A stretch of 64,000 nucleotides of DNA from a virus. Lineage: Duplodnaviria > Caudoviricetes. Shown here piece after piece: positions 3,685 through 48,618 of this stretch. The stretch spans positions 5,998-69,997 of IMG/VR virus record IMGVR_UViG_3300028603_000041, one strand, 5' to 3'. The position numbers and the translations under genes were made by a program. Numbering within the stretch: the first letter of the stretch is position 1; the number at the start of each line of letters is the position of its first letter. Under the pieces are notes generated by a model. That model did no database searches. It was not told the origin of the DNA and saw only the letters and a list, made by a program, of their open reading frames with translations.

Positions 3685-3710
3685 GCGTTCCCTCCCCTGA
3701 TACAGAAGGT

Positions 3711-3735: not shown

Positions 3736-3743
3736 TAAAACTT

Positions 3744-4929: not shown

Positions 4930-4950
4930 TGATCTCCGCATTCATAGATC

Positions 4951-13001: not shown

Positions 13002-13156
13002 TCCTTTTCTCGATTCTGCAGGTACAAATCCTTGTTGCCTCTTTTGTTATCGACTGCAAGGAAGAAATAGGACAAGAGCCGGCATTCGTACTGTTGAGAA
13101 TCAAGTACCTCTTTCTGCACTTTCTCTAACCAAGTGCTGAGATATTATATCTTCAT
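12998..13156 (-). pseudogene. DpdA N-terminal-like module A, in-frame TAA at codon 4
   Basis: ATG overlaps the folE stop; MKI*YLSTWLEKVQKEVLDSQQYECRLLSYFFL; TAA at 13145-13147 looks like a 3-nt insertion. Confidence 0.7.
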
Positions 13157-13713: not shown

Positions 13714-13746
13714 TCCTCCTCCTTGGTTTCTATTGAACTTTCTCCA

Positions 13747-14622
13747 TCAACGTCCTCTTTTAGAAAACAGACCACGTTTTGGTAGGGGTTTCGACGCTAT
13801 AATTGCTATTTCTGTGGCTACCTCTGGGAACAATATCGGAAAGAAGGACATTAACCATTCATTTGGTAGATATTCGGAAAAGCGCTGATAAAGTTCCTTG
13901 ATGGTAACGTTGTTCTGTTCTTTTTCTATGTAATCGTCAAAATCCTTACGCTTACTAACCAACCCAAATACATTTAGTAGCTCAAACCCTATTTCTTTTA
14001 GTGCGGCGGACAATTCGTCCAAATCCCACTCATATAAATGGGCTTTGTACTGCGTATCGTATGGATCTTTCTTTTCCCGAGTATTTGGGCAAGATATGAA
14101 CAGGATCTTACCTGGTTTGAGAACATTGTGACAGGCTTGCAAAGATTTATACCCAGCTTCTTTTTGCATATGCTCGATGGCCGATGTGTATACAATCAGA
14201 TCAAACTTTTTTTGTAGGTGTTGGTCCATTTCTTCTGCGGAACAAAGAACGTGTTTGATTGGAAATGAGTAATACTCGTCGAGATTTTCGATGGTTTTGA
14301 TACCGCTGCGACGTAATTGTTCCTTAATGTTTTTTTCAGAAATATCAACGCCGGTGTACCCAGCAATGTCCCGTTTATACCAGCGTATCAGAGGGAGCAG
14401 TAAACCCCTTCCACAACAGACGTCTAACACCTGATCGTCTTTCCTCATCATGGTAACAACCTTATGGTGTTGGATGTAATTCATGACGTCCAGCGAACTA
14501 AAAAATCCATCTGCGAACTGTCTGTAAAAGTTTCGCATTTGGTAGGTAGTACAATATATTTCCCTTGGGTTCATATCATCTTCGACCCTGAAAACGATCT
14601 TTTTACCATCGTACTCTTTCAT
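13747..14622 (-). CDS. class I SAM-dependent methyltransferase in the deazaguanine cassette
   Basis: VLDVCCGRG, GVDIS, TSAIEHM, LKPGKILFISCPN. Confidence 0.85.
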   Translation of the reverse strand: MKEYDGKKIVFRVEDDMNPREIYCTTYQMRNFYRQFADGFFSSLDVMNYIQHHKVVTMMRKDDQVLDVCCGRGLLLPLIRWYKRDIAGYTGVDISEKNIKEQLRRSGIKTIENLDEYYSFPIKHVLCSAEEMDQHLQKKFDLIVYTSAIEHMQKEAGYKSLQACHNVLKPGKILFISCPNTREKKDPYDTQYKAHLYEWDLDELSAALKEIGFELLNVFGLVSKRKDFDDYIEKEQNNVTIKELYQRFSEYLPNEWLMSFFPILFPEVATEIAIIASKPLPKRGLFSKRGR

Positions 14623-14653
14623 GTTGTTCCTCCTTAACTGAAGGAAGCGGTTC

Positions 14654-14685
14654 GACCTTAGTAGTGCCGAGGAACTACTAAGGTC
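14654..14685. other. 12-bp intergenic hairpin
   Basis: GACCTTAGTAGT / ACTACTAAGGTC with an 8-nt loop. Confidence 0.7.
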
Positions 14686-14711
14686 TCTACTGATTGTGTT
14701 TCGGTACTTTT

Positions 14712-15572
14712 TTAGAAGGGATATTTATTGATCAACTTCAATGCCGAGAAACATCTACGGACGTTGCTGTATTCGGCCTGAATGGTGGTTTGTTTTACTA
14801 GAACTCCAAACGCTTCCACTTTTGTTATGATGGTTTTTAGATCAGCTTCCGGGTTTTCGCAGATTATTTTGGTTACTTGAGAAACGGCTGATGTGGGTTT
14901 TCCCTCACCATCCCCGGCCTTTTCCGGTTTCTTTCCCTTCTCACCGCCAGCAGCCTTCCCAGCTTTCTCCGGCTTCTTCCCCTTACCAGCCTTTTCCGCC
15001 TTAGGTGTCTGCTCAGCTACCGCGGCCTTGGCCAGTTCCTCTCTCATGGTGCCGAACAGTTCCCACGCCTTTTCTCCACCGTCGACTGCCAAGATGGTAT
15101 CCTTGTCCTCAGGTGTGAGTAAGGACACATGCTCTCCAAGCTCCATCTTGCACTGATCATCCGTCATTTCCGCGATGTTGGGTCGGTCTTTCTCCTCCCA
15201 AACCACCTCAGCCAAAATCTCAAAGGCTCTCCTCTCAGGAGCAACCTCTACCGGTTCGGTCTTCTTTCCTTTGTCCTTAGCCTTGGCGGCGGCCGCAGCA
15301 GCTGCCTTTCCTTTGTCGTTTCCTTTCTTTCCTGCCATTTCAATCTCCTTTTGGTAGTCTTGAATGAAGTATTCCGTCATCCTGGTTCCGAACCGGACGG
15401 CCCTCTCGTACTCAGCCCGCTCGCTATCGTAGCGGGAAATTAGCTTGCTGTAAGTATGCTTGTTGTCCCTGAACTCGCCCTTGCCAAGCTCCAGACTCAT
15501 CTGGTTGATGGCTTGGATCAAAGTTGCTCTAGTTTGGTTCTCTACGTTTTGGATTGCTGTCATGACGTTCAT
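14712..15572 (-). CDS. Lys/Ala-rich hypothetical protein, possible DNA-binding protein
   Basis: KAEKAGKGKKPEKAGK repeats and a helical C-terminal domain; strong RBS. Confidence 0.55.
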   Translation of the reverse strand: MNVMTAIQNVENQTRATLIQAINQMSLELGKGEFRDNKHTYSKLISRYDSERAEYERAVRFGTRMTEYFIQDYQKEIEMAGKKGNDKGKAAAAAAAKAKDKGKKTEPVEVAPERRAFEILAEVVWEEKDRPNIAEMTDDQCKMELGEHVSLLTPEDKDTILAVDGGEKAWELFGTMREELAKAAVAEQTPKAEKAGKGKKPEKAGKAAGGEKGKKPEKAGDGEGKPTSAVSQVTKIICENPEADLKTIITKVEAFGVLVKQTTIQAEYSNVRRCFSALKLINKYPF

Positions 15573-33837: not shown

Positions 33838-33943
33838 GTTCAGTCTGGTCAGGAGTAATGGTGAGTGGGTATGTCACAGCTGCAGAACATTTGAGGAGAA
33901 AAGTAGTGGAAGACAAGTTTTTGAAGTTCCTGGTAGATGCTGA
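33812..33943 (+). CDS. small Zn-ribbon protein (43 aa)
   Basis: GTG with GGAGG; CQKC..CHSC. Confidence 0.45.
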   Translation: MNLCQKCARFSLVRSNGEWVCHSCRTFEEKSSGRQVFEVPGRC

Positions 33944-34385
33944 AAGCTGGGAGAACCGTGCTTATCCTGATTCATCGGGGTTCTGGACCATCGGGGTGGG
34001 GCACAGACTGACACAGTCTGAGCTGTCCTCAGGCAAGATATCGATCAATGGGGAAGTTGTGAAGTGGTCGGATGGCCTGACGGACAAACAGGTTAGGGGT
34101 CTGCTGGAGCAGGATCTGGAAAGGTTCAGGCTGATAGTTGATGTGTTAAGACAGCAGGCCCCGGTTGGACTCAACCAGGACCAGCGGGATGCTTTAGTGA
34201 GCTTTGCTTTCAATATAGGGGCGGTGGCTTTCCGGCGCTCTACTCTGTGGAAGCGGGTAGTGGCTGGGGATCTGGGGGATGTACCAAGGCAGATGCGCCG
34301 GTGGGTGTACTCTGCCGGTAAGAAGTGGGACGGGCTGAAGAACAGGCGGGAAAAAGAAATCAAGTACTGGCTCGGGGAAATATGA
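33906..34385 (+). CDS. endolysin, GH24 lysozyme
   Basis: ESWENRAYPDSSGFWTIGVGH, ALVSFAFNIG, GLKNRREKE; likely start GTG 33906. Confidence 0.93.
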   Translation: MEDKFLKFLVDAESWENRAYPDSSGFWTIGVGHRLTQSELSSGKISINGEVVKWSDGLTDKQVRGLLEQDLERFRLIVDVLRQQAPVGLNQDQRDALVSFAFNIGAVAFRRSTLWKRVVAGDLGDVPRQMRRWVYSAGKKWDGLKNRREKEIKYWLGEI

Positions 34386-37449: not shown

Positions 37450-38664
37450 ATGAGTGGACAAGCGAGTTTGGTGGCTCAGCCCTATGTGGTGAATGCCCGG
37501 TCTGGAGCATGGAGCCCTGGCACTGACCAGCTCATGAACACCATGAGCCCTATGCTGGCCAACAACCTGATGAGGTTCGGTATGAACCATCAGGCGTTGC
37601 GCCCCTGGGTGAACATGGATCAGCAGCAGGCAGTGATCCAGGCCAACCTGAAAGAGCTGGAGCTGATGGCGAATGACCTCGGCCTTGACACAGACAACTT
37701 GTTCAAGGGTGTTGAGGCGTTCATTACCATTAACAAGAAGAACTACCGAGTCAATGCGGCCACGCTGCTCAAGGATGAGTGGAAGCTGTATGACGATGTG
37801 GTGCTGATGGTGGCTCAGGAGCGTCTTGTGGCGGTTGGGGATGTGCTGGCCAAAGGGCTGGTGCTGAACGTGCCTAATGCTCTGGGTACCACCGTGCTTG
37901 AGTATGAGGACATGACCCACCCTGGAGAGGCGGTTATGAGTATGGACGCCATCACCAGGGGTAGAAGTGACCGGCCTGAGTTCACGATGAACTACCTGCC
38001 GCTCCCGATCATCCATGATGACTTTAGCCTGACCATTCGGGCTCTGACGGCATCGAGGAAGCGGGGCACGGCACTGGATACCTTGCGGGCGGCTGCGGCA
38101 AGCCGGAATGTGTCTGAGTACATCGAGAATATGTTCTTCAACGGGCCTGCCGGTACTGCAACTGCTGCTACTTTTGTTTATGGTGGTGGTACCATTTACG
38201 GATGCCGTAACTTCACTGGCTGCAACACCTATACCACTATGGCGGACTGGGGAAGCTCCGGCATCACCGGGACAGAAGTCCTGAAGGACTTGCTCAACAT
38301 GAAGCAGCTCTTGATCGACGACAAGCACTACGGGCCGTATGGTGTGTATATTCCAACCGCATACGAAACCGTGCTCGATGATGAATTCAAGACCTCCAGC
38401 GACAAGCCGATCCGGCAGCGGATGCTTGAGATCAGCGGGATTGAGTTTATCAAAGTCGCAGACAAGCTACCGGATGACAACGTTATCATGATCGAGATGA
38501 AGCCGGAAACGGTGCGGATGGTGGTAGGGTTCCAGCCCATGATGCTTGAGTGGCAGGCTATGGGCGGAATGCAGTTCGAGTATAAGGTGATGGCCATTAT
38601 GGTTCCTCAGTTCCGCAGTGACTCCAGCGGTCAGTGCGGCATTGTGCTTGGCACCACCAGCTAA
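37450..38664 (+). CDS. major capsid protein (HK97 fold, encapsulin/linocin-like subgroup)
   Basis: 404 aa, strong RBS, PLPIIHDDF, ENMFFNG, GPYGVYIP, VMAIMVPQFR. Confidence 0.88.
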   Translation: MSGQASLVAQPYVVNARSGAWSPGTDQLMNTMSPMLANNLMRFGMNHQALRPWVNMDQQQAVIQANLKELELMANDLGLDTDNLFKGVEAFITINKKNYRVNAATLLKDEWKLYDDVVLMVAQERLVAVGDVLAKGLVLNVPNALGTTVLEYEDMTHPGEAVMSMDAITRGRSDRPEFTMNYLPLPIIHDDFSLTIRALTASRKRGTALDTLRAAAASRNVSEYIENMFFNGPAGTATAATFVYGGGTIYGCRNFTGCNTYTTMADWGSSGITGTEVLKDLLNMKQLLIDDKHYGPYGVYIPTAYETVLDDEFKTSSDKPIRQRMLEISGIEFIKVADKLPDDNVIMIEMKPETVRMVVGFQPMMLEWQAMGGMQFEYKVMAIMVPQFRSDSSGQCGIVLGTTS

Positions 38665-38724: not shown

Positions 38725-38970
38725 ATGCTGACTTACCGAAGAAAAGCAAAAAGCGGCAAGATGCACATGATGGACCGGAAGGGCGGGGCCAGGCAACGCA
38801 GAGCCTCCCTAAAGACCTTACGGCCCGGAGATGAGCTGACTGTAAACCGGGTTGAGGAACTTCCTGGCTATCCGTACTCGATGGATGGTTGGGAGTTGGT
38901 CGGGGAAGAGGCCGAGCCTATTAATGAGGAGCAACAGGTTACTACCCGCCGCACTAGGACAAGGAGCTAG
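38725..38970 (+). CDS. small basic hypothetical protein
   Basis: 81 aa with RBS GGAGGGG. Confidence 0.55.
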   Translation: MLTYRRKAKSGKMHMMDRKGGARQRRASLKTLRPGDELTVNRVEELPGYPYSMDGWELVGEEAEPINEEQQVTTRRTRTRS

Positions 38971-38975: not shown

Positions 38976-39617
38976 ATGAGCTGGGGGAAGGTACCCAAGC
39001 TGTTTGCCAGTGGCGGCAGGGCCTACGTGGTTGGTGGGGGACCATCGGCGGCTGACGTAGATTGGGAGAAGCTGCGCGGCAAGGCTGTTGTGGCTTGCAA
39101 CGCTGCAGGGTTCCTGTTACCGGAAGGAATAGTTAAGGCAACCGTGGTGGTTGATAAACGCTTTATGAACCTGTTCCGACCAAGGCTGCTCGCTATGGAT
39201 AGCCCAGTGTTTTATGCTCCAACCCCAGGCAGGCCGGTTGATGAAAAAAACGGTTATGCGGTTCACCTGAAACGCCTCCAGAGCCGGAAGTACTGGGGGA
39301 TAAGCGAGGACCCAGGCGTTGTCCGCTACAACCGGGGCTGCGGAGGCACGGCTATCAATATTGCTTACCTGATGGGGGCCAGGGAGCTGATACTGATAGG
39401 GTTTGATTGCTCTATCAGGCACGGATTCAACTGGCACAGGGAATACACCGATCTGATGAAGGCGGACAGGCTAGTCACTCCAGGCAGCGAGTATTATGTC
39501 GGGGTCAGTCTGGCGATGGAGAAGGTGAGAGAGGATCTGGAGCGGCTAGGGGTGCTGGTGTGGAACACTGTTAAGGGTACTCCCTTTAGCTACTGGCCCT
39601 TGGAGGACTTGCTGTGA
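38976..39617 (+). CDS. Maf/DUF115-like (sialyltransferase-like fold) putative glycosyltransferase
   Basis: VVGGGPS, VACNAA, GTAINIAYLMGA..LIGFD. Confidence 0.65.
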   Translation: MSWGKVPKLFASGGRAYVVGGGPSAADVDWEKLRGKAVVACNAAGFLLPEGIVKATVVVDKRFMNLFRPRLLAMDSPVFYAPTPGRPVDEKNGYAVHLKRLQSRKYWGISEDPGVVRYNRGCGGTAINIAYLMGARELILIGFDCSIRHGFNWHREYTDLMKADRLVTPGSEYYVGVSLAMEKVREDLERLGVLVWNTVKGTPFSYWPLEDLL

Positions 39618-40234
39618 TGTTCAGCCCTGACTGGATACATCTGGTGCTCCCGGAATACAGGCTGGCTTTCCTCCATGTGCCCAAGTGTGGAGGCACCACT
39701 GTTAAGCAGGCCATAGCTAAAGCGGTAGGGCTGGAGTTGAAAGAATTCAAGCGTTTTCGGCCAAGGTGGAGTAAGGAAAAGATTTTGCGGGAAGGCTCAG
39801 GGTTCCTGAAGTTTGCGGTAGTTCGCAACCCGTATGACCGGCTGGTTAGCTACTGGGAATATAATGTGCGGGGAGTGGGCTGTCACGAGTTTCCGAAGCA
39901 GATCGGGTTCAGGGAGATGGTTGGGGTAATCTGTAACGATATTGCGGAGCAAAGGCACGTGGATATTCATTACAGGCCCATCAGCCAGATCCTTACCGAC
40001 GATAGAGGGGAGCTGATCCCAGACATCATTCTGCAGTTGGAAACCTTGGAGCAGGAATGGACCTACCTGAGGAGAACGGTAGAAAAATTCTGCAGGCTCA
40101 CTTTGCCGTCCCACCTGGACCGGGCAAAGCGATCCGACAGGAAGCCCTATCAGCAGTATTATGACGATTACTTTGGGGCTTTGGTTTGGGAACGGTACCT
40201 GAGTGACTTCCTGGCTTTCGGTTATTCGTTCTGA
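39614..40234 (+). CDS. sulfotransferase (Sulfotransfer_2-like)
   Basis: 5'-PSB FLHVPKCGGTTV, 3'-PB VRNPYDRLVSYW, HYRP. Confidence 0.88.
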   Translation: MMFSPDWIHLVLPEYRLAFLHVPKCGGTTVKQAIAKAVGLELKEFKRFRPRWSKEKILREGSGFLKFAVVRNPYDRLVSYWEYNVRGVGCHEFPKQIGFREMVGVICNDIAEQRHVDIHYRPISQILTDDRGELIPDIILQLETLEQEWTYLRRTVEKFCRLTLPSHLDRAKRSDRKPYQQYYDDYFGALVWERYLSDFLAFGYSF

Positions 40235-40242
40235 GGTTATTT

Positions 40243-40959
40243 ATGGGGAAAACAATTGGATTAGGACAATCGAATAAGAAGTACGGAGGCTGGTTAGCCT
40301 GGTTCAGGCCGGAGATCCGGGATGAGTTTGACTCACTCCCTAGGTGTTACGAAGGCCAGACCGTGTTTGTGATAGGTGGAGGCCCTAGCATCAACCACCT
40401 GCCATTGAAGCTCATCCGCGACCGCCCGGTACTGGGGTGCAATGACGCCTTCCGGCTGGGGGATTGGGTGGATTGGCTGGTGTTTGCAGACAGGCGCTGG
40501 TGGATGTGGAACTGTGATGAGGTGGCAAAGTGGAAGAACCGGGAAAACGTGATCAGCCTGGTCCCTCAGCTCCTGGACGAGCGGGCGGAGAAATGGAACT
40601 GGCTATGGATACTACGGCGGGACGAGGCCCGGTTTGGCCTCTCTGTAGAGCAGGATACTGTCTGTTGGAATCGGGGCTGTGGTGGGGCTGCAATCAATGT
40701 CGCTTACTTGCTTGGAGCTTCCAGGGTGGTGCTGTTAGGATTTGATATGCAGATGTGGAAGGGCAAGCACAACTGGCATGATTACCACAGGGTTGAGGAG
40801 CGGCCACAGATATACCAGAATTCCATGATGCCGTTTCTCAAGCCGATGAGTGACGCAATGAAGGTTACGGGGTTGCAGATTTGCAATGCTACCCCTAAGA
40901 GTGCTCTGGATATATTTCCAGTCAAGCCGCTGGAGGAATTATTGGAGATGGGGTGGTGA
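40243..40959 (+). CDS. second Maf/DUF115-like putative glycosyltransferase
   Basis: VIGGGPS, LGCNDA, FADRRWW, GAAINVAYLLGA..LLGFDM; paralog of 38976-39617. Confidence 0.65.
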   Translation: MGKTIGLGQSNKKYGGWLAWFRPEIRDEFDSLPRCYEGQTVFVIGGGPSINHLPLKLIRDRPVLGCNDAFRLGDWVDWLVFADRRWWMWNCDEVAKWKNRENVISLVPQLLDERAEKWNWLWILRRDEARFGLSVEQDTVCWNRGCGGAAINVAYLLGASRVVLLGFDMQMWKGKHNWHDYHRVEERPQIYQNSMMPFLKPMSDAMKVTGLQICNATPKSALDIFPVKPLEELLEMGW

Positions 40960-41642
40960 GGATTTTTAACAGGACCAAACAACAGGAACCGATGCCTCAC
41001 TTTTACCGTACCATACCTGGCATGTTCCACTTCGCGGGGCTGTATCGCAGGGCAGTTGAAAGAGCCCCAGACCCAGCAATATTTGTTGAGATTGGGTGCC
41101 ATCTTGGTTGCTCCACGGCTTTCCTTGTGGTGGAAGCCCTTAATAGCGGCAAGGATATAACCATCTATGCGGTCGATCTGTGGGACAAGGAAAGTAAGTG
41201 GAAGGCTGGACCAGAGGATTTCCTTGGTTATCTCGGACATATGCCGAATGTTGTTCCTCTCCACATGCACAGCCAGGAGGCAGTGAGGCAGTTCGCTGAT
41301 GGTTCCCTGGACTTCATCTGGATAGATGGGAATCACAGGTACCCAGGCTGCTGGCTGGATATCCGCAGCTGGTGGCACCGGCTAAAGAGCGGTGGCTGGA
41401 TGGGTGGTGATGATCTCAATTACCACGGAGTAGCTAAGTCTGTGCGGCTGTTCTTTGGGGAGGAGTGCGTGGTGGACCACCCTAACGGGGCTTGGGCCAG
41501 GTATCAGGAAACATACCTGATTGAGCCTACCGGCCTCTGCAGGCCGGATGCAAGGCGCCTCTGCTGGTGGGTTAGGGATAAGGATGATAGCTGGAATCCC
41601 ACAGGTCTGCACAGGAAGGTAAGATGGCAAGGAAACGGATAA
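40953..41642 (+). CDS. SAM methyltransferase (Methyltransf_24-like)
   Basis: VEIGCHLGCS, FIWIDGNH, GGDD. Confidence 0.85.
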   Translation: MVRIFNRTKQQEPMPHFYRTIPGMFHFAGLYRRAVERAPDPAIFVEIGCHLGCSTAFLVVEALNSGKDITIYAVDLWDKESKWKAGPEDFLGYLGHMPNVVPLHMHSQEAVRQFADGSLDFIWIDGNHRYPGCWLDIRSWWHRLKSGGWMGGDDLNYHGVAKSVRLFFGEECVVDHPNGAWARYQETYLIEPTGLCRPDARRLCWWVRDKDDSWNPTGLHRKVRWQGNG

Positions 41643-42499
41643 CCAAAGCAGTGATCAAGGCTAAAGCCGATGAGCGAAAAAGGGCCTTGACCGAGCGAAT
41701 GATAGCGGCCGCAAAGAAGGCTGCTGAAGAGGAGAGGCGATTGGGGAAGACCATAAACGGTTTCCGCGTCCCCACAGTCATGAATGAGTGGCAGACCCTT
41801 TACCAGGTGCTGAACGGTAAGAGCTTGAGCCGCTACGGGGATGGAGAGCTAAAGCACATGGAAGGCAAGCGCAACGTCAGTCAGGTGTGGGTGGACACCT
41901 TGGCTGCAGCGCTCAAGGCCGTATTCCGCTCCAGAATGAAAAATCATCTGGTGGCTATCCCCAATGTTTACAGCGGCAGGTACTTTATCGATGTTAAAGA
42001 GGATTATGTGGATGCTATGCGGCGCCGGTTTCTCCGAATTTCCGACAATAAATACATCTATGGCTCAGCCTACGTAAGCCGTGGGGATATGAATGGTTAC
42101 ATGCAGTGGGCTAGTTATTGGGGGGTAGTGAGTGAGCTGTGGAGAGGTAGGGATGTGGTGCTGGTGCGCGGGGTGGCCAGGCGGGCAGCTCCCGATGGCA
42201 TGATGCTGCAGGCTCGCAACATAGCTCATGTGGAAACCCCGTCTGTCGGGGCCTGGGAGAAGTACCCGAGCATTTTTAAGGAGTGCCTGAAGCACGCCAA
42301 GTCTTCCATATTTCTGTTATGTGTTGGCCCAACAGCAACGGTGCTGGCGGCAGACCTGGCACAAAATGGCAGGTGGGCTGTGGATATTGGGCATCTTGGA
42401 CTGTTCTACAAAAAGTGGGGGATTGAGTTCGACTACAACCCTCAGGTCTGGCACCACAGGCCGACCGATCCAGGCTATAAGCCGGGGAATCCATACTGA
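41624..42499 (+). CDS. GT-D fold glycosyltransferase (DUF1792-like)
   Basis: SLSRYGDGE, CVGPTATVLA, VDIGHL. Confidence 0.88.
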   Translation: MARKRITKAVIKAKADERKRALTERMIAAAKKAAEEERRLGKTINGFRVPTVMNEWQTLYQVLNGKSLSRYGDGELKHMEGKRNVSQVWVDTLAAALKAVFRSRMKNHLVAIPNVYSGRYFIDVKEDYVDAMRRRFLRISDNKYIYGSAYVSRGDMNGYMQWASYWGVVSELWRGRDVVLVRGVARRAAPDGMMLQARNIAHVETPSVGAWEKYPSIFKECLKHAKSSIFLLCVGPTATVLAADLAQNGRWAVDIGHLGLFYKKWGIEFDYNPQVWHHRPTDPGYKPGNPY

Positions 42500-43149
42500 T
42501 GCTGACTGTAGCTTGCGTGTGGATAAAGAGCGATACCTACCGGACCGAGGAATGGGTGCTGAAGCTTAGGAGCATGGTGGCTAGGCGTATGGGGATGATC
42601 CATCCATACCAGTTCATATGCATCACTAAAGAGGACCTTAGCCAGCACGGTATACCGACCGTTAAGCCGAGGATCAAAGTACCGGGCAACGTGCCTCTGT
42701 GGTGGCATAAGCTCAACCTGTTTTCGTTAGAGGCGCCTTGGGTGCTGTATTTTGATCTGGATGTGGTGCTGACTGGGCATTTAGGGGAACTGGTAGATTT
42801 TCCCTCTGACTTCTGCGTGGCTCCAAGCAATGGGGTTCCGATGCGAGGGCATGATTTCAACAGCTCGGTCATGATGTTCAGGACAGATTCGGACCAGGCC
42901 AGAATGGTGAAACATCTAGTGACCGATTCTCACGTACCGTTTACCAAGTTCGCCGGTGATCAGCAATGGTTGGCTTCATTGCCGATGCGGGTGGATTTGT
43001 TCCCAAGCAGATGGGTACATAAGTATCTGCCGGGCCAAGGGGTCTACTTACCGCCGGAAGGAACAAAAGTGGTGCTGATGATCCAGGGCGGCAAAAACAA
43101 GGTACTGTTGGAGGCTGGTCACGAATGGATCGGGGAGTACTGGAAATGA
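42499..43149 (+). CDS. GT-A fold glycosyltransferase (GT8-like)
   Basis: WWHKLNLF, YFDLDVV, FNSSVMMF, GDQQW. Confidence 0.8.
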   Translation: MLTVACVWIKSDTYRTEEWVLKLRSMVARRMGMIHPYQFICITKEDLSQHGIPTVKPRIKVPGNVPLWWHKLNLFSLEAPWVLYFDLDVVLTGHLGELVDFPSDFCVAPSNGVPMRGHDFNSSVMMFRTDSDQARMVKHLVTDSHVPFTKFAGDQQWLASLPMRVDLFPSRWVHKYLPGQGVYLPPEGTKVVLMIQGGKNKVLLEAGHEWIGEYWK

Positions 43150-43901
43150 TGACGTTGATCTATCCATATTACAATTCAGCCGGTATGCTGAAAAAGCAGC
43201 TGGAGGGATGGCTGGCTCTGCCGGATAAGGTGCTTGAGCAGATAGCGATTATTCTGATAGATGATTGCAGCCCCAAGACTCCAGCCATGCCAGTGCTGAA
43301 GAAGCACGGATTCCCGAATGCAGATTTCCCTCTCAGCCATTACCGGGTATTGAGGGACATACCGTGGAATCAACACGGCTGCAGAAACCTGGGAGCCAAG
43401 ATAGCTGAGGATGGCTGGTTGTTCCTGAGCGACATCGATCACGTGCTGCCAGTCGAAAGCATTGAGGGGTTGCTCTGTAGGGAGCTGGATCAGGGAAAGT
43501 TTTATACCCTGCAGAGAGTGACAGCGGTGAAAAAGGAGGACGGCAATCTCAAGTACGACCTCATGACAGATATTCACGGTAAGCCCAAGCCCCACCCCAA
43601 CACTTTCCTCGTCACTAGGGAGAAGTTCTGGGAGTGTGGTGGGTATGATGAGGACTACTGTGGTACGTACGGCGGGGACGGACCATTTTCCAGGGCTCTT
43701 GAGCGGGTGGCCAAGCGCGAGCACATACAGGAGCTTATGCTGATTCGCTGGACCAGGGATCAGATACCGGATGCCAGCCAGCCTCCGGAGTATCGGGAAA
43801 AGTACCGGAAGCTTTACCGCTCCAGGTTTGAAAACAAAGGCTGTAGCAGAGCAGAGAAACCGACTAGGCACATTAGATTTCAGTGGGAGAGAGTGTTTTG
43901 A
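43146..43901 (+). CDS. GT2/GT7-like glycosyltransferase
   Basis: IDDCS, WNQHGCRNLG, SDIDH, GGYDEDY..YGGD. Confidence 0.85.
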   Translation: MMTLIYPYYNSAGMLKKQLEGWLALPDKVLEQIAIILIDDCSPKTPAMPVLKKHGFPNADFPLSHYRVLRDIPWNQHGCRNLGAKIAEDGWLFLSDIDHVLPVESIEGLLCRELDQGKFYTLQRVTAVKKEDGNLKYDLMTDIHGKPKPHPNTFLVTREKFWECGGYDEDYCGTYGGDGPFSRALERVAKREHIQELMLIRWTRDQIPDASQPPEYREKYRKLYRSRFENKGCSRAEKPTRHIRFQWERVF

Positions 43902-44473
43902 AACGACACAGAGGCAGATACCCATACCCGCTGGTACACATACCAGGCTGGATGAATGGTCCTGAGCTGGAGTGGTTGTACCTCAGGGCCAGGGAGAATC
44001 AAGTGATTATTGAAGTCGGGTCTGCCTACGGCCGCTCTTCTCATGCGTTACTTGTCGGGAATTTTGAGTGCTTTGAATTCGGTGGTCGGGTGTATTGTGT
44101 GGATTACTGGCCGATGCCGATTAAGGGCGGTGGGGATGATAGCCTGTTCGATGAGCACAAGAAAGATCATGTTAGGAAGTCCACCTTTTTGCGGCGCCTC
44201 GGGCACTGGCCGAATCTTAACATAATTGAGCTGCCTCAGCACCTAGCCCACCCAGCCCTTAGCAGGCTGGAGGTTAACATGGTGTTTTTGGATGGCGGTA
44301 CAGCCAATATCAGGGAAGAACTGGGGTTGTGGAAGAAAGTCCCAAATAAGCTTCTGTGCGGTCATGATTACTGTGAGGAGAAGTACCCTGGGGTGGTGGA
44401 AGCGGTCGACGAGATACTGGGCAGGAAGCCGAGCGTGGTTGAGGGCGGTACGGTTTGGTATGCCTACAAATGA
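43883..44473 (+). CDS. SAM methyltransferase (Methyltransf_24-like)
   Basis: IEVGSAYGRS, VFLDGG, CGHDY. Confidence 0.82.
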   Translation: MGESVLKRHRGRYPYPLVHIPGWMNGPELEWLYLRARENQVIIEVGSAYGRSSHALLVGNFECFEFGGRVYCVDYWPMPIKGGGDDSLFDEHKKDHVRKSTFLRRLGHWPNLNIIELPQHLAHPALSRLEVNMVFLDGGTANIREELGLWKKVPNKLLCGHDYCEEKYPGVVEAVDEILGRKPSVVEGGTVWYAYK

Positions 44474-44480
44474 GGGGGAA

Positions 44481-45266
44481 ATGAGCAAAGAACCATTAAC
44501 CATAGTGTGCTGGAAGTGGTTACCCGAGCACAAAAGCAAGCACCCGGAGAAGCGAGCAGCATTTAGCTGTGAGCACGTGAACAGGCTTTACCGGATGCTG
44601 GAAAGGAACCTCACCAGGCCCTTTGAGCTGGTGTGCGTGACGGATAACCGGTGCGGGTTGGATAGCGCCGTTAGGACTCTCAACATCGACCGCCACTTTG
44701 GGGAGTACAAGGAGCTTGGGGGGTGTTATAGGAGACTCAAGGCATTCTCCCAGATGCCCGCTTTGGTGTGCTTCGGTAAGAGCTTCGTGAGCATGGACAT
44801 AGACGTTGTGATCACCGGGAACCTGGATGAGCTGCTGGTATGGGATGAGTTCAGGATCTGGGAGGATAAGTGGCGGCGCCGGACACCTTACTGCGGGAGT
44901 CTCTGGGCCATGAAAGCAGGAGCCAGAGAGAAGGTCTGGGAGGAGTTCAAGACGGACCCGGGAAAGGCGGTGCAGAAGGCAGCGGGGATGAAGTACATAG
45001 GCACAGACCAGGCTCATGTGTCCGCCTGCCTGTGGCCAGGTGAGCAGGTGTGGAGTATCCGGGATGGGGTTTACAATTTCAATACGCAGGTAAGACGTAG
45101 CCGCAGCCGGATAGTGATTGATGGGGATGGGAACAAAAAGCTGGATATCGGTAGACCTGGGGAGCTGCCGGAGGATGCGAAGATCGTGTTTTTCAACGGC
45201 AAATATGACCCTAGCCAAGTATGGCTGCAGAAGAAATATGACTGGATAGGGGATTTGTGGAGGTAG
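44481..45266 (+). CDS. GT-A fold glycosyltransferase (GT8-like)
   Basis: VCWKW, RRLKAF, MDIDVV, GTDQA, VFFNG; start ATG 44481. Confidence 0.8.
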   Translation: MSKEPLTIVCWKWLPEHKSKHPEKRAAFSCEHVNRLYRMLERNLTRPFELVCVTDNRCGLDSAVRTLNIDRHFGEYKELGGCYRRLKAFSQMPALVCFGKSFVSMDIDVVITGNLDELLVWDEFRIWEDKWRRRTPYCGSLWAMKAGAREKVWEEFKTDPGKAVQKAAGMKYIGTDQAHVSACLWPGEQVWSIRDGVYNFNTQVRRSRSRIVIDGDGNKKLDIGRPGELPEDAKIVFFNGKYDPSQVWLQKKYDWIGDLWR

Positions 45267-45269
45267 TAA

Positions 45270-45518
45270 ATGGGAATGGGAAGAGACTATAATTGTCATG
45301 ATAAGCTTGATACTAAAATTTGTCTTGATGAACTTTCCGAATCTGCAGATTACGGTCTCGGCCGTATTGCATACGAAGCATACTGTGCTACTACAGGTTG
45401 GAAAAGTGCTATTACGAATGCTGCTTTGCCCAAGTTTGATGACTGCCAGGAGCTGGTAAAGAAGGGATGGATAGCTGCGGCAAAAGCGGTACAAAAGGAA
45501 CTAGATTATGGGCAATGA
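45270..45518 (+). CDS. small hypothetical protein
   Basis: GRIAYEAY..W..AA. Confidence 0.55.
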   Translation: MGMGRDYNCHDKLDTKICLDELSESADYGLGRIAYEAYCATTGWKSAITNAALPKFDDCQELVKKGWIAAAKAVQKELDYGQ

Positions 45519-45888
45519 GCCCTACAAATGGCAACTCAACCCCAAGGCCTGCCTCAAGGAACTGGGCCGGATGGAGGATGATCCTGGTTACACCAAGACC
45601 ATCTGCGGCATTCACCGGGTCCTCTGGTCCTATATAAATATTGAGGCTGCAGGGCATCTACCAGAACCCATACGCCGTAGGATCAATGAGCTGCTGGAAG
45701 AGTGCTTCAGGATGGGGAAGCGGATGGACTACCGGCTAAAACAGTACTTTGCGGCCACTGGCGGGCAGATACCGGATGGGGTGGAATGGGAGCCTGGGAA
45801 CAAGTTGAGCGAAAGGATGCAGGCGGAGGTTAATTTCCCCAAGTCTCCGACCAAAACAAAGCAGGAAAAGAGGAGCGGCAAGAAGTGA
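45508..45888 (+). CDS. hypothetical protein
   Basis: 126-aa coupled ORF. Confidence 0.55.
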   Translation: MGNEPYKWQLNPKACLKELGRMEDDPGYTKTICGIHRVLWSYINIEAAGHLPEPIRRRINELLEECFRMGKRMDYRLKQYFAATGGQIPDGVEWEPGNKLSERMQAEVNFPKSPTKTKQEKRSGKK

Positions 45889-46601
45889 GACGGGTAGCGG
45901 CAGTGAGCTTTCTCTACGGGGAATGGCCAGAATCAGCCCCATACCTCGCCGGGCAGTACGTGAGGCGGCTGTATGATGGGGTGAGGCGCAACACGAGCTT
46001 TCCTGTAGACTTTTGGGTTGTTACGGATACTCGGAATTGGGACTATGTTGGTAGGCTGTTTTGCGGCAAGGTTTTCTACCACTCCTTTTTGCCAGTGTGG
46101 TGGGAGGGGTTGCGGTGGAACTTGAAGAAGGTCAGAGCGTTTGATCCTGAGCTAGGGTTAGGAATCTATGATTGGGTGCTGCTGCTCGATCTGGACCTGG
46201 TGATTACAGGGAGCTTGGATGAGTTCTTTCAGCCTCGGGACCGAATGATCACTTGCCGCGGGGCTTACCGGGATGCAATCGGCGGCAGTGTGATTGGGTT
46301 CGATCCAAATAGTGAGGAGCCAACCGGACTGGTGAGCTACCTAAAACACAACCAGAGGCTGATCGAGCAGGACACCAGAGGCAGCGAGAGAAAGTTCCTG
46401 GCCAAGGCTGTAAGTACCTGCGTCATCAGACAGCCGGGTTACTGGCAGGACATTCTGCCGGGGAAAGTGTTGAGTTACAAAGTGGATGGGGGGTTTGAGA
46501 ACGGGGCCAGCATAGTCAGGTTCCACGGTAGCCCAAGGCCCCATGAGGTCGATCATCTGGAGTGGATGGGCAAGCATTGGAGAGGAAATGGAGCGCACTA
46601 G
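45885..46601 (+). CDS. GT-A fold glycosyltransferase (GT8-like)
   Basis: LLDLDLVI, VRFHGSPRPHE. Confidence 0.8.
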   Translation: MRRVAAVSFLYGEWPESAPYLAGQYVRRLYDGVRRNTSFPVDFWVVTDTRNWDYVGRLFCGKVFYHSFLPVWWEGLRWNLKKVRAFDPELGLGIYDWVLLLDLDLVITGSLDEFFQPRDRMITCRGAYRDAIGGSVIGFDPNSEEPTGLVSYLKHNQRLIEQDTRGSERKFLAKAVSTCVIRQPGYWQDILPGKVLSYKVDGGFENGASIVRFHGSPRPHEVDHLEWMGKHWRGNGAH

Positions 46602-46947
46602 AAAGATTTGGGGAGAGCGGTGGTTGATACGGCAGGACAGCACTCATGCGAATTCTGTCCTGCTGCTTGAGCTAGGGATGGAGTGCAGTTGGCACCGGCA
46701 CCGGGAGAAATACAACGTATTCGCCTTGGTGGACGGTAAGGTCGGGATAGTGACTGAGGAGATCAGTGGCAGGAAAGAGACCATACTCCGCGGGGGCCAG
46801 AGTTTCATAGTGAAGCCTGGGCAGTGGCACAAATTCCGGGCCTACGAAGACAGCATTATGGTTGAGGAAATGTATGTGGAGTATGATGAGGGGGATATTG
46901 AACGACAGACCGTGGGTGGGAAATTCGAGTCTAGGGAGATCATTTGA
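46588..46947 (+). CDS. cupin-fold protein (sugar isomerase-like)
   Basis: CSWHRHREKYNVF..VKPGQWHKF. Confidence 0.78.
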   Translation: MERTRKIWGERWLIRQDSTHANSVLLLELGMECSWHRHREKYNVFALVDGKVGIVTEEISGRKETILRGGQSFIVKPGQWHKFRAYEDSIMVEEMYVEYDEGDIERQTVGGKFESREII

Positions 46948-47636
46948 TGCCTAATTACACAGACTCCCCAATCCTTGTTACCGGCTGCGCCCGCTCCGGT
47001 ACCTCACTCACTGCTGGTATCCTCGCCATCTGTGGAGCTTGGATAGGACAGACAACCGGCCCAACCAGCCACAATCGCCGGGGGCAGTTTGAGAACGAAT
47101 ACATTCGGGACAAGCTCACTAAACCTTTCCTGCGCTCCATCGGGGCTGATCCTATGGGACAGAAACCTTTGCCGGACTTATCCGAGGAGGCATTGAGGAA
47201 GTTCGGGCCAGAATGGCGGCTAAAGGTGATTTCTGCTATCCAGCATCAGGGTTATGTCGGTTCCTGCCCTTGGATGTATAAGGGAGCCAAGGCTTGTCTG
47301 GTCTGGCCAAAGTGGGCCGAAGCCTTCCCTGCTGCCAACTGGGTAATAGTCCGCAGGGCTGACGAAAGAATCATAGACTCCTGCCTGCACACAGGTTTCA
47401 TGCGGAAGTACCGAACCAGGGAAGGTTGGCAGGAGTGGATAGATCATCACAAGAGGCAGTGGGACGCCATGCACAAAACCAAACTGAACATTACTGAGGT
47501 TTGGCCGGATGAGTTGGTGCGGGCGATGCACTGGGATGAATACCGGATTGTTCGGTGGTTGGTTGAGAGCTTCGGCCTGAAGTGGCGGGAGCGGGAGGTC
47601 AAGGATTTTGTCGACCCCAAACTTTGGAACGGGTGA
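46944..47636 (+). CDS. sulfotransferase (Sulfotransfer_3-like)
   Basis: ILVTGCARSGTS, WMYKG, WVIVRR. Confidence 0.8.
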   Translation: MMPNYTDSPILVTGCARSGTSLTAGILAICGAWIGQTTGPTSHNRRGQFENEYIRDKLTKPFLRSIGADPMGQKPLPDLSEEALRKFGPEWRLKVISAIQHQGYVGSCPWMYKGAKACLVWPKWAEAFPAANWVIVRRADERIIDSCLHTGFMRKYRTREGWQEWIDHHKRQWDAMHKTKLNITEVWPDELVRAMHWDEYRIVRWLVESFGLKWREREVKDFVDPKLWNG

Positions 47637-47784: not shown

Positions 47785-48183
47785 ATGGCAAATCGAGTTA
47801 CCGGAGCAGAAGTCAAAGAGATCATAAATACCGTTCTCACAGGAGACGAGGTTACGCCTTTCATTACTGCTGCAAATGCTGTGGTTACTGGTAAATGTGC
47901 TAACTATTACACCGAGGCAGAACTGAAGGAGATTGAGAGGTGGTTTTCAGCGCATCTGGTATCCATACGAGACCCCAGCAGATCAGCGGTTACAGAGCAG
48001 GGTATTGACGGTGGACCAAAACAGAGGTTTGCCCTTATGCCAAACTATCGGATAGGGCTGGCTACTACTCCATACGGGAGTCAAGTGCTGTTGCTCGATT
48101 ATGGGAACAAGCTGTCTGATCTTGGGCTGCGGCGCCTGATAAAGTTTACTTCGGTTGGTTCTCCAAATAAGGACTTTGGCTGA
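47785..48183 (+). CDS. head-tail connector (adaptor) protein
   Basis: ERWFSAHL, TPYGSQV; first neck gene. Confidence 0.75.
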   Translation: MANRVTGAEVKEIINTVLTGDEVTPFITAANAVVTGKCANYYTEAELKEIERWFSAHLVSIRDPSRSAVTEQGIDGGPKQRFALMPNYRIGLATTPYGSQVLLLDYGNKLSDLGLRRLIKFTSVGSPNKDFG

Positions 48184-48276
48184 TGTGGGTATGGGTGGCG
48201 GTAATAGTAGCATGTTCCGATTCTCGGAACGAGAATGCCTGATGGCTTTGGTCTACCTTGGCAAGAGGATTAGGTA

Positions 48277-48618
48277 ATGGACTATACCTGGGCACTGAAT
48301 CAGACTGCCGTATACTGGAAAAGGCTAGGACCTGATGGCTACGGGGACTGGCTATGGGAGGACCCGGTGGAGATAGACGTTCGCTGGGATGATGTGAGCG
48401 AAATGTTTACGGATGTGAATGGCGAACAGCGGATGAGTTTGGCAAAAGTGTTGGTGAACCAGGATGTTAAGGTTGGGGATTACCTGTACCTGGGGGATCT
48501 GGATGATATTGACAGCGCAGTTACCCCAGCCAATACCAAGACAGCTTACAGGGTACAGAAATTCGACAAGATCCCAGACCTTAGCGGCCAGGAGTTCTTT
48601 AGGAGGGCATGGGTATAA
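48277..48618 (+). CDS. head-closure protein
   Basis: NQTAVYW, PVEIDVRW; neck position. Confidence 0.72.
   Translation: MDYTWALNQTAVYWKRLGPDGYGDWLWEDPVEIDVRWDDVSEMFTDVNGEQRMSLAKVLVNQDVKVGDYLYLGDLDDIDSAVTPANTKTAYRVQKFDKIPDLSGQEFFRRAWV

What the first reader, a model, noticed from the sequence alone, without database searches (positions are those of the whole stretch)
38976..47636. 8.7-kb glycan-building island between major capsid and neck genes: likely virion glycosylation
Seen: a coupled run in the late operon of two Maf/DUF115-like proteins, one GT-D (DUF1792-like), three GT8-like, one GT2/7-like, two methyltransferases, two sulfotransferases and a cupin. None has an obvious signal peptide or TM segment. 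Established: GT-D enzymes glycosylate streptococcal serine-rich adhesins, Maf proteins glycosylate flagellin, and glycosylated virions are known in some actinobacteriophages. Inference: cytoplasmic enzymes build a complex glycan on capsid or tail proteins, an unusually large toolkit for a phage of this size.
Basis: partly seen in the sequence, partly recalled or inferred. Interest (0 to 1): 0.8.

Follow-up and report, generated by a model that had tools for sequence, protein, structure and literature searches.

The report
Phage virion glycan-building gene island
An uncultured 70-kb tailed phage carries 14 tightly packed genes between its capsid and neck genes, mostly soluble sugar-adding, methylating and sulfating enzymes. 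They most likely coat the phage's own particle with a complex, possibly sulfated sugar, which has been shown so far only, in simpler form, for mycobacteriophages.

Summary
Window 38976-47636 holds 14 co-oriented, overlapping ORFs:
- two Maf/CstII-fold transferases
- one GT-D
- three GT8-fold enzymes
- one GT2
- two Methyltransf_24 enzymes
- two sulfotransferases with intact PAPS motifs
- a cupin

None has a membrane segment.

The block fills a hypervariable slot. Among 57 informative relatives with the same capsid family, the capsid-to-adaptor gap runs from 231 to 9163 nt, and it is 9121 nt here. Of these, 38 carry island genes. A Maf-like gene comes first in 34 of the 38, and the Sulfotransfer_3-like gene lies directly before the adaptor in 17 of 27.

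A core of GT-D, Maf-like, GT2 and GT8-like genes recurs inside the morphogenesis operons of unrelated phages. Cultured examples include Tetraselmis viridis virus S20, Pseudomonas phage PAJU2 and Citrobacter phage phiNP.

The genome has no integrase. It has no nucleotide-sugar or PAPS genes, so the donors must come from the host. It also lacks the hydroxymethyl-pyrimidine genes needed for DNA glycosylation.

Virion glycosylation is the best reading (about 0.6), but the acceptor is not shown. I found no paper describing this toolkit. Earlier runs of this scan noted similar islands in at least 43 other genomes.

The parts
37450..38664 (+). Major capsid protein (DUF6260 / Linocin_M18 type, HK97-like). 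It forms the upstream border of the slot.
   Evidence: Pfam. 36% identical to the annotated major capsid protein of Brevundimonas phage MaInes.
38725..38970 (+). Small conserved protein that follows the capsid gene in both island-bearing and island-less relatives. Here it is a short 81-aa form.
   Evidence: the N-terminal motif (K/R)xG(K/R)H...GD is shared across loci. Close relatives L010-L012 have 145-147 aa.
38976..39617 (+). Maf/MptE-like transferase A (sialyltransferase-like fold family).
   Evidence: Pfam PF01973 E 4e-5 and phrog_4603. Paralogue of 40243-40959 (33% identity).
39614..40234 (+). Sulfotransferase (Sulfotransfer_2) with PKCGGTT and RNPYDRLVS PAPS-binding motifs.
   Evidence: Pfam 74 bits against a cut-off of 22. 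Motifs read from the translation.
40243..40959 (+). Maf/MptE-like transferase B. This family is found in nearly all island-bearing relatives and is usually the first gene after the capsid gene.
   Evidence: phrog_4603 E 2e-30. AF2 pLDDT 91.7. Z 14.2 to Maf 5mu5, 12.8 to CstII, 11.6 to MptE. First after the capsid gene in 34 of 38.
40953..41642 (+). SAM-dependent methyltransferase (Methyltransf_24).
   Evidence: Pfam 68 bits against a cut-off of 26.3.
41624..42499 (+). GT-D fold glycosyltransferase (DUF1792 type) with a lysine/arginine/glutamate-rich N-terminal extension of about 50 aa.
   Evidence: Pfam 124 bits. PDB 4phr E 1e-24, with GDGE aligned to GDGE. RYGDGE is invariant in 17 homologues.
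42499..43149 (+). GT8-like GT-A glycosyltransferase, subfamily a (DLD motif).
   Evidence: phrog_1962. Alignment A4 has an invariant DxD.
43125..43901 (+). GT2 family glycosyltransferase.
   Evidence: Pfam PF00535 24.5 bits against a cut-off of 23.3. Orthologues are present in all seven cassette-bearing loci compared.
43883..44473 (+). Second Methyltransf_24-like methyltransferase.
   Evidence: Pfam 22 bits, below the cut-off. The L004 orthologue carries PF13578.
44481..45266 (+). GT8-like GT-A glycosyltransferase, subfamily b (DID motif). This is a core member shared with unrelated phages.
   Evidence: phrog_1962 E 8e-19. AF2 pLDDT 92.4. Z 17.5 to LgtC, 16.6 to glycogenin, 16.1 to GlyE.
45270..45518 (+). 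82-aa ORF of unknown function. No relatives were found in the compared loci.
45508..45888 (+). 126-aa protein of unknown function, conserved next to GT8-like c in L004, L006, L012, L088 and L090.
   Evidence: No Pfam, PHROG or Atlas lead.
45885..46601 (+). GT8-like GT-A glycosyltransferase, subfamily c (DLD motif).
   Evidence: phrog_1962 E 4e-15. Alignment A4.
46588..46947 (+). Small cupin, possibly a sugar isomerase or epimerase.
   Evidence: Pfam Cupin_2 32 bits. Weak hits to Lyx_isomer and FdtA.
46944..47636 (+). Sulfotransfer_3-like sulfotransferase. In relatives it is usually the last island gene before the adaptor.
   Evidence: Weak Pfam hit. Invariant TGxxRSGTS and VRRxxxxIxxSC in 17 homologues. 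Atlas neighbours are virus-dominated Sulfotransfer_3 clusters. It lies just before the adaptor in 17 of 27.
47785..48618 (+). Two head-tail adaptor (neck) genes, 47785-48183 and 48277-48618. They form the downstream border of the slot.
   Evidence: Orthologues follow the capsid gene directly in island-less relatives, including Brevundimonas phage MaInes.
49540..49983 (+). Tail tube protein with a short Ser/Thr-rich C-terminal tail (…ITGAPTETSG). It is a candidate acceptor.
   Evidence: every relative of this tail tube family ends in a 6-14-residue Ser/Thr/Gly-rich tail.

Best explanation
The island is a late-expressed, cytoplasmic, lipid-carrier-free glycosylation pathway. It most likely builds an O-linked, methylated and sulfated oligosaccharide directly on the phage's own structural proteins before or during assembly.

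Proposed steps, all inferred:
1. A Maf/CstII-fold enzyme starts or caps the chain, using a host CMP-activated sugar of the Kdo or nonulosonic-acid type.
2. The GT-D, GT2 and three GT8-fold enzymes extend the chain from host UDP- or NDP-sugars.
3. The cupin may isomerise a sugar.
4. The two methyltransferases (SAM) and the two sulfotransferases (host PAPS) tailor the glycan.

Likely acceptors are exposed Ser/Thr residues, for example the Ser/Thr-rich C-terminal tail of the tail tube protein, the capsid protein or the putative decoration protein.

Shown here: the enzyme families, their conserved catalytic or cofactor motifs, their soluble nature, their place in the late operon and the comparative pattern.
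Not shown here: the acceptor, the sugars, the order of steps and the biological benefit.
For: 1. Families and folds are confirmed.

2. The genes are translationally coupled inside the + strand late operon, with no excess of promoter-like or terminator-like sites. The G+C content matches the flanks.

3. The slot between the capsid gene and adaptor 1 is empty in 19 of 57 informative relatives and filled in 38, with gaps from 231 to 9163 nt.

4. In L004, L015, L018, L050 and L067-72, island genes are interleaved with the adaptor genes.

5. The core of GT-D, Maf-like, GT2 and GT8-like genes recurs inside the morphogenesis modules of phages with unrelated capsid and terminase types:
- between TerL and portal (L007)
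- between connector and head completion (L008)
- between head completion and tail completion (L009)
- between capsid and head closure (Tetraselmis viridis virus S20)

6. Cultured Pseudomonas phage PAJU2 has a Maf-like gene plus a methyltransferase between head closure and tail terminator.

7. GT-D, GT8 and GT2 are the families that glycosylate serine-rich adhesins in the cytoplasm without a lipid carrier. GlyE, a GT8 of that pathway, matches at Z 16.1. Maf enzymes O-glycosylate flagellin. Both statements about pathway roles rest on established knowledge.

8. The genome lacks an integrase, APS kinase, CMP-sugar synthetase and thymidylate-synthase-like hydroxymethylase, each with positive controls. 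Its DNA-modification genes (FolE, QueD, QueE and the DpdA region) sit on the opposite, early strand.

9. Precedent: mycobacteriophage glycosyltransferases and an O-methyltransferase modify capsid and tail tube C-termini (Freeman et al. 2023, as cited in PMC12619734 and PMC11600133).
Against: - No direct evidence shows that any virion protein is modified.
- Capsid C-termini do not separate island-bearing from island-less relatives. The ending GTTS occurs in both.
- The Ser/Thr tail of the tail tube protein has no island-less control, because almost every relative of that tail tube family carries an island.
- GT-D, GT8 and Maf/CstII folds also act on lipid-linked or lipooligosaccharide glycans. 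A bacterial GT-D plus MptE-like pair lies in an ABC-transporter polysaccharide locus in Gottfriedia.
- The Maf-like fold is nearly as close to the pyrophosphokinase MptE (Z 11.6) as to the sialyltransferases, so a non-glycosyltransferase activity is not excluded.
Confidence: 0.6

Rival explanations
1. The enzymes remodel a host glycoconjugate at the cytoplasmic face, such as undecaprenyl-linked O-antigen or capsule intermediates, the lipooligosaccharide core or flagellin. This could mask receptors, so that progeny are not trapped on debris or so that superinfection is blocked.
For: CstII and LgtC, the fold neighbours, act on lipooligosaccharide. Bacterial GT-D relatives lie in polysaccharide loci. 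The phage has a beta-helix tailspike-like protein, which implies a polysaccharide receptor. In the lambdoid phage phiNP the cassette sits in the moron-prone region between Rz and terS.
Against: There is no membrane protein, initiating phosphoglycosyltransferase, flippase or transporter. No integrase was found, and the genes are coupled to late structural genes, which leaves little time for export before lysis. The cassette is interleaved with neck genes in relatives.
Confidence: 0.15
2. The enzymes hypermodify phage DNA with glycans, as shown for GT-A and GT-B enzymes that act on 5-hydroxymethylcytosine.
For: Phage GT-A enzymes related to GT8 glycosylate 5hmC DNA (bioRxiv 10.1101/2023.12.21.572611). 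This phage invests in DNA modification through 7-deazaguanine genes.
Against: There is no thymidylate-synthase-like hydroxymethylase, and the control rang. No Tet/JBP was found, although that control was silent. The DNA-modification genes are on the early strand, 25 kb away. Sulfotransferases and Maf-like enzymes have no known DNA role. The position within head-tail genes is conserved across unrelated phages.
Confidence: 0.04
3. Part of the island modifies proteins directly rather than through a glycan. The Sulfotransfer_3-like enzyme would sulfate tyrosine or serine on virion proteins. The Maf/MptE-like enzyme would be a (pyro)phosphotransferase or nucleotidyl-utilising enzyme rather than a glycosyltransferase.
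For: Minimal islands hold only a Maf-like gene, or a Maf-like gene plus the Sulfotransfer_3-like gene, with no other glycosyltransferase. The weak best PDB profile hits of the sulfotransferase family include protein-tyrosine sulfotransferases (E 0.08-0.8, not significant). MptE HPPK matches at Z 11.6.
Against: The PDB hits are not significant. An Atlas structural neighbour is a GT2-sulfotransferase fusion, which points to glycan substrates. The best fold match of the Maf-like model is Maf itself, followed by sialyltransferases. In this window both enzymes sit among seven glycosyltransferases.
Confidence: 0.1

Closest known systems
Mycobacteriophage virion glycosylation (Che8, Corndog and other cluster O phages, Myrna; Freeman et al. 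2023, known here through PMC12619734 and PMC11600133)
   Same: Both have phage-encoded soluble glycosyltransferases plus an O-methyltransferase. In the mycobacteriophages these modify capsid and tail tube subunits at their C-termini. Here the genes are in tandem, and the tail tube protein has a Ser/Thr-rich C-terminal tail.
   Different: This island has 7 transferases rather than 2-4. It uses other families (Maf/CstII-fold, GT-D, GT8-fold) and adds two sulfotransferases and a cupin. It lies inside the head-neck operon, in a hypervariable slot. The hosts of the cultured phages that carry homologues are Gram-negative (Pseudomonas, Caulobacter, Citrobacter). No modification has been demonstrated.
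Cytoplasmic O-glycosylation of serine-rich repeat adhesins (Fap1, PsrP: GtfA/B, Gtf3, dGT1 with its DUF1792 GT-D domain, GlyE and other GT8 and GT2 enzymes)
   Same: The same three elongating families (GT-D, GT8, GT2) act stepwise on a protein in the cytoplasm without a lipid carrier. GT-D matches 4phr at E 1e-24 with the DXE motif kept. The GT8-like model matches GlyE at Z 16.1.
   Different: No GtfA/B-type GT4 initiator, no accessory Sec system and no serine-rich repeat protein were seen. A Maf-like enzyme takes the first position instead.
Maf flagellin glycosyltransferases and GT42 sialyltransferases (CstI, CstII)
   Same: They share the fold (Z 14.2 and 12-12.8) and a GGGPS-type N-terminal nucleotide loop, nearly invariant in 40 homologues. 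Maf enzymes act directly on Ser/Thr of a cytoplasmic protein that later self-assembles.
   Different: The phage proteins are only the ~210-240-aa catalytic core, without the flanking substrate-recognition domains of Maf. The donor sugar is unknown, and there are no nonulosonic-acid synthesis genes in the phage.
Phage DNA glycan hypermodification (Pyle et al., bioRxiv 10.1101/2023.12.21.572611)
   Same: Several phage GT-A-type enzymes act in series to build oligosaccharides.
   Different: Those clusters sit next to a cytosine methyltransferase and a 5mYOX/TET enzyme, and none was found here. This island sits among structural genes.

Membership tests
GT-D (DUF1792, PF08759) | Profile match over the curated cut-off | tested here: met
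   124.4 bits against a cut-off of 27. PDB 4phr/4pfx/5v4a at E 1e-24 to 2e-23.
GT-D (DUF1792, PF08759) | Metal-binding DXE motif | tested here: met
   Query GDGE aligns with GDGE of 4phr. D73, G74 and E75 are invariant in 17 homologues. That this motif binds the metal comes from my knowledge of the dGT1 structure paper.
Maf / GT42 sialyltransferase-like fold (PF01973 MptE-like) | Fold similarity covering the catalytic domain | tested here: met
   Z 14.2, rmsd 4.3, 201 residues aligned to 5mu5 residues 240-513. Z 12.8 to CstII 1ro8.
Maf / GT42 sialyltransferase-like fold (PF01973 MptE-like) | Pfam gathering score | tested here: not met
   23.9 and 21.0 bits against a cut-off of 34.6. The PHROG family 4603 match is strong (E 2e-30).
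Maf / GT42 sialyltransferase-like fold (PF01973 MptE-like) | Transfer of a CMP-activated nonulosonic acid or Kdo; catalytic base equivalent to CstII His188 | not tested
   Only the motif-level conservation of GGGPS and GFD was seen. No residue-level superposition was made. MptE kinase matches at Z 11.6, so the activity remains open.
GT8 (retaining GT-A) | GT-A fold closest to GT8 members | tested here: met
   Z 17.5 to LgtC, 16.6 to glycogenin, 16.5 to the LARGE1 GT8 domain, 15.9 to 3tzt, a GT8 protein.
GT8 (retaining GT-A) | DxD metal and nucleotide-sugar motif | tested here: met
   D106 and D108 are invariant in 26 sequences of the three subfamilies.
GT8 (retaining GT-A) | Sequence-profile membership (Pfam PF01501) | tested here: not met
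   No Pfam hit at E <= 0.1 for any of the three. I therefore call them GT8-like, not GT8 members.
Sulfotransferases (PF03567, PF13469) | 5'-PSB and 3'-PB PAPS-binding motifs | tested here: met
   Sulfotransfer_2 enzyme: PKCGGTT and RNPYDRLVS, with Pfam at 74 bits. Sulfotransfer_3-like enzyme: TGxxRSGTS and VRRxxxxIxxSC are invariant in 17 homologues. Pfam is below the cut-off at 21.7 against 27. Atlas neighbours are Sulfotransfer_3 clusters.
Phage virion glycosylation system (mycobacteriophage type) | Glycans demonstrated on capsid or tail tube subunits, dependent on the phage glycosyltransferases | not testable with these tools
   This needs mass spectrometry of virions. Only context supports it.
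Phage virion glycosylation system (mycobacteriophage type) | Homology of the enzymes to the Che8 or Corndog glycosyltransferases | tested here: not met
   tblastn of the GT-D, Maf-like and GT8-like proteins against 50,697 phage records found no actinobacteriophage. The resemblance is functional, not by descent.
DNA glycan hypermodification clusters | Adjacent 5-methylpyrimidine dioxygenase or hydroxymethylase that supplies the acceptor base | tested here: not met
   PF00303 is absent and its controls rang. PF12851 is absent but its control was silent. Neither was found among the 30 ORFs of 127 aa or more upstream of the head module that were scanned against Pfam, which leaves a handful in that range unscanned.

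The most novel reading that the evidence does not exclude
A large group of environmental tailed phages, many probably infecting Gram-negative hosts, coat their heads or tails with strain-specific O-glycans. These glycans would be started by a minimal Maf-type enzyme using a host CMP-sugar and finished by sulfation. The slot between capsid and neck would then behave like a phage 'serotype locus' that gains and loses enzymes much as bacterial O-antigen loci do. Sulfated glycoprotein virions have not been described for any bacterial virus.
Probability: 0.3. Interest if true: 0.8.

Novelty: new variant of a known kind. Interest (0 to 1): 0.6.

Why it matters
If the virion is the target, particle glycosylation would not be an oddity of mycobacteriophages. 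It would be a widespread, modular and fast-evolving trait of environmental phages. It would also add chemistries not yet seen on phage particles: sulfate, methyl groups and sialic-acid-like sugars.

Such a coat could change several properties:
- adsorption
- stickiness to mucus or particles
- stability of the particle
- recognition by grazers or by immune systems, which matters for phage ecology and phage therapy

Homologous mini-cassettes occur in cultured phages of Pseudomonas, Caulobacter and Citrobacter, so the idea can be tested directly.

Tried and rejected
- **Near-identical DNA:** megablast of the region against 50,697 phage records found nothing.
- **Single-protein GT-D scan of viral contigs:** it found no close relative. 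An alignment or exact look-ups were needed.
- **Maf-like alignment as a query:** it was too diverse to scan genome contigs.
- **PDB sequence searches:** the GT8-like, Maf-like, cupin, Methyltransf_24 and Sulfotransfer_2 proteins gave no significant hit.
- **The 126-aa protein:** no Pfam, PHROG or Atlas lead.
- **Capsid C-terminus as a marker of the island:** rejected, because the same endings occur with and without an island.
- **Tail tube C-terminal Ser/Thr tail as a correlate:** it could not be tested for lack of island-less members of that tail tube family.
- **Bacterial GT-D relatives (about 30% identity, 79 loci):** they almost never carry the cassette partners, so the cassette is not simply a copy of a common bacterial locus. 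The Bacillaceae loci that have both GT-D and an MptE-like gene proved to be a polysaccharide locus, not a flagellin island, in the one case examined.
- **Promoter and terminator scan:** nothing beyond chance.
- **Literature:** nine searches found no paper on Maf-like, GT-D or sulfotransferase islands in phage structural operons. The Freeman et al. paper itself (PMC10527164) is not held.

Full report
**Where the window lies**

The window is bases 5998-69997 of a 69,997-bp IMG/VR virus record that is estimated to be 93% complete.

- The minus strand up to about 25.3 kb carries replication and DNA-modification genes: RecA-like, clamp loader, PolA, UDG-exonuclease, an N6/N4 methylase, SNF2 helicases, primase, and FolE, QueD and QueE.
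- The plus strand from about 25.8 kb is one long late operon. In order it holds portal (32320), lysozyme, MuF-like protein, a 481-aa DUF2213 protein, a 156-aa protein, the major capsid protein (37450-38664, DUF6260/Linocin type), an 81-aa ORF, the island (38976-47636), two adaptor genes (47785, 48277), the tail tube gene (49540), chaperones, a 2033-aa tape measure protein and a beta-helix tailspike-like protein.

**Observation**

The island has 14 ORFs on one strand. They overlap by 1-25 nt or lie 3-8 nt apart.

Pfam and PHROG place them as follows:
- two MptE/Maf-like proteins
- one Sulfotransfer_2
- two Methyltransf_24, one of them below the cut-off
- one GT-D
- one GT2
- three phrog_1962 'glycosyltransferases'
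- one Cupin_2
- one Sulfotransfer_3-like protein, below the cut-off
- two small ORFs with no match

I checked the doubtful assignments further.

- *Maf-like protein.* The AF2 model of 40243-40959 was built on 40 homologues and has pLDDT 91.7. It matches the catalytic domain of the flagellin glycosyltransferase Maf (5mu5) at Z 14.2, the sialyltransferases CstII and Cst-I at Z 12-12.8, and the kinase MptE at Z 11.6.
- *GT8-like protein.* The model of 44481-45266 was built on 26 homologues and has pLDDT 92.4. It matches the GT8 enzymes LgtC (Z 17.5), glycogenin (16.6), the LARGE1 GT8 domain (16.5) and GlyE (16.1). The DxD motif is invariant in all three subfamilies.
- *GT-D.* It matches the DUF1792 structures at E 1e-24, with its GDGE aligned to their GDGE.
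- *Sulfotransfer_3-like family.* It keeps both PAPS-binding motifs in 17 homologues. Its Atlas neighbours are virus-dominated Sulfotransfer_3 clusters, and one structural neighbour is a bacterial GT2-sulfotransferase fusion.

No protein has a membrane-like segment. G+C content does not differ from the flanks. Promoter-like and terminator-like sites are no more frequent than in shuffles.

**Comparative anatomy**

Exact look-ups of GT-D homologues gave two related phage contigs, L004 and L006. Both have the same capsid family and an island directly after the capsid gene.

A scan of viral contigs with a capsid alignment gave 80 loci. I built my own HMMs of the island families, the capsid protein, the adaptors and the tail tube protein, and scored every locus with them. 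After collapsing capsids that are at least 95% identical, the picture is as follows:
- There are 63 lineages, of which 57 are informative.
- 19 go straight from the capsid gene and the small ORF to adaptor 1.
- 38 carry island genes.
- The capsid-to-adaptor gap runs from 231 to 9163 nt, and the window's gap is 9121 nt.
- A Maf-like gene is the first recognised gene in 34 of the 38.
- The Sulfotransfer_3-like gene lies directly before the adaptor in 17 of the 27 that reach it.

Minimal versions are a Maf-like gene alone (for example L059, L085, L027) or a Maf-like gene plus the sulfotransferase (L024, L035, L038).

On a capsid tree the island-bearing lineages form a few large clades. This suggests few gains followed by much turnover.

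Close relatives differ by single genes. L012 lacks the Sulfotransfer_2 gene and places a methyltransferase elsewhere, and L006 lacks one GT8-like gene.

In L004, L015, L018, L050 and L067-72, island genes lie on both sides of the adaptor genes. Brevundimonas phage MaInes, whose capsid protein is 36% identical, has no island.

**The core cassette in unrelated phages**

More distant GT-D homologues (35-38% identity) sit in phages with other capsid and terminase families. The cassette is still inside the morphogenesis module:
- between TerL and portal in L007
- between connector and head completion in L008
- between head completion and tail completion in L009
- between capsid and head closure in Tetraselmis viridis virus S20, whose record (taxonomy Caudoviricetes) is annotated with a tape measure and a major tail protein

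BLAST shows that all of them share GT-D, one or two Maf-like genes, GT2 and the GT8-like b gene, usually together with methyltransferases.

Maf-like homologues also occur in cultured phages: phiCbK-like Caulobacter phages, Brevundimonas and Xanthomonas jumbo phages, D3-like Pseudomonas phages and Citrobacter phage phiNP. In PAJU2 the Maf-like gene, an unknown gene and a methyltransferase lie between head closure and tail terminator. In phiNP the cassette lies between Rz and terS.

In bacterial genomes the nearest GT-D genes are only about 30% identical and nearly always lack the partner genes. The one close hit, L090, is a 15-kb contig binned in a Syntrophobacteraceae MAG. It is itself a phage fragment carrying the full island, the adaptors and the tail tube gene.

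**Interpretation**

The enzymes are soluble, co-transcribed and probably co-translated with head and neck proteins. The phage shows no integrase. The phage also lacks genes for PAPS, CMP-sugars or other nucleotide sugars among the ORFs scanned.

A substrate that is present in the cytoplasm late in infection fits best, and the virion proteins are the obvious candidates.

The family set supports this. GT-D, GT8 and GT2 are the elongating enzymes of the lipid-free cytoplasmic glycosylation of serine-rich adhesins. Maf enzymes glycosylate flagellin directly.

Mycobacteriophages provide the precedent of glycosyltransferases and an O-methyltransferase that modify capsid and tail tube C-termini.

The tail tube protein here ends in …ITGAPTETSG, and every relative of this tail tube family carries a 6-14-residue Ser/Thr/Gly-rich tail. 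Almost all of those relatives also carry an island, so there is no control group. I count this as consistent with the reading, not as evidence for it.

**Rivals**

- *Host envelope remodelling* is plausible from the fold neighbours and from one bacterial locus. It fits poorly with late coupled expression, the absence of any membrane component and the interleaving with neck genes.
- *DNA glycosylation* lacks its acceptor pathway here, and the DNA-modification genes lie elsewhere.
- *Direct protein sulfation or a kinase-like role for the Maf-like enzyme* cannot be excluded for the minimal islands. It is less likely in this window, where seven glycosyltransferases surround these genes.

**Novelty**

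Nine literature searches found no description of this toolkit in phages. Earlier runs of this scan noted similar capsid-adjacent glycosylation and sulfation islands in at least 43 other genomes. Those are unchecked AI notes that agree with my reading, and I tested the shared claims only on this lineage.

I rate the finding as a new variant of a known kind. It is virion glycosylation by inference, with new enzyme families, sulfation and a hypervariable locus architecture.

Noticed in passing
window 38725-38970; L004:6257-6544; L012:2169-2606 and others: A small protein follows the capsid gene in both island-bearing and island-less relatives. Its N-terminal part is conserved ((K/R)xG(K/R)H…GD). 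Most island-bearing relatives add a C-terminal module of the type GGGKYNV(I/V)N…PIND…EA. The window's 81-aa copy and most island-less copies lack this module. It could be an adaptor or an acceptor for the Maf-like enzyme.
   Followed up: partly
window 41624-41790: The GT-D of this clade has a lysine/arginine/glutamate-rich, probably helical N-terminal extension of about 50 residues. The GT-D of the unrelated cassettes (L007-L009) lacks it. Its role is unknown; it might be a docking helix.
   Followed up: no
L004:6531-8648: In this relative the two adaptor genes lie inside the island. The order is Maf-like, sulfotransferase, adaptor 1, adaptor 2, then 11 more island genes.
   Followed up: partly
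L170 (Pseudomonas phage PAJU2, NC_011373) 5980-7923: A cultured D3-like phage has a three-gene mini-cassette between head closure and tail terminator: a Maf-like gene, a 275-aa unknown gene and a methyltransferase. This gives a ready experimental handle.
   Followed up: partly
L003 (Tetraselmis viridis virus S20, NC_020840) 6455-12038: This record lists an algal host, but its taxonomy line is Caudoviricetes and it is annotated with a tape measure and a major tail protein, so it reads as a tailed phage. It carries the GT-D, Maf-like, GT2 and GT8-like cassette between its capsid and head-closure genes.
   Followed up: partly
window 33858-34385: A phage lysozyme gene (Pfam E 5e-33) sits between the portal gene and the MuF-like head gene, which is an unusual place for a lysis enzyme. 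It might be a virion-associated or ejected lysozyme.
   Followed up: no
window 57861-60431: A right-handed beta-helix protein (Pfam Beta_helix E 2e-21) follows the tape measure gene. It looks like a tailspike or depolymerase, which implies a polysaccharide receptor on the host.
   Followed up: no
L090 (CAZDKX010000094.1, 15-kb contig of a Syntrophobacteraceae MAG): This contig is a phage fragment with the full island, the adaptors and the tail tube gene. It is either a binning artefact or a weak hint about the host.
   Followed up: no
L172:5085-5423 (record bases 5085-5423, just outside the window): A 112-aa protein matches the Lcl C-terminal domain (PF07603, E 9e-21) among the early genes.
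   Followed up: no
L100 (Gottfriedia luciferensis) 854-14762: This bacterial locus holds three GT4, three GT2, a GT-D, an ABC transporter, a polysaccharide deacetylase and an MptE-like protein. GT-D and MptE-like enzymes therefore also co-occur in a cell-wall polysaccharide pathway.
   Followed up: partly
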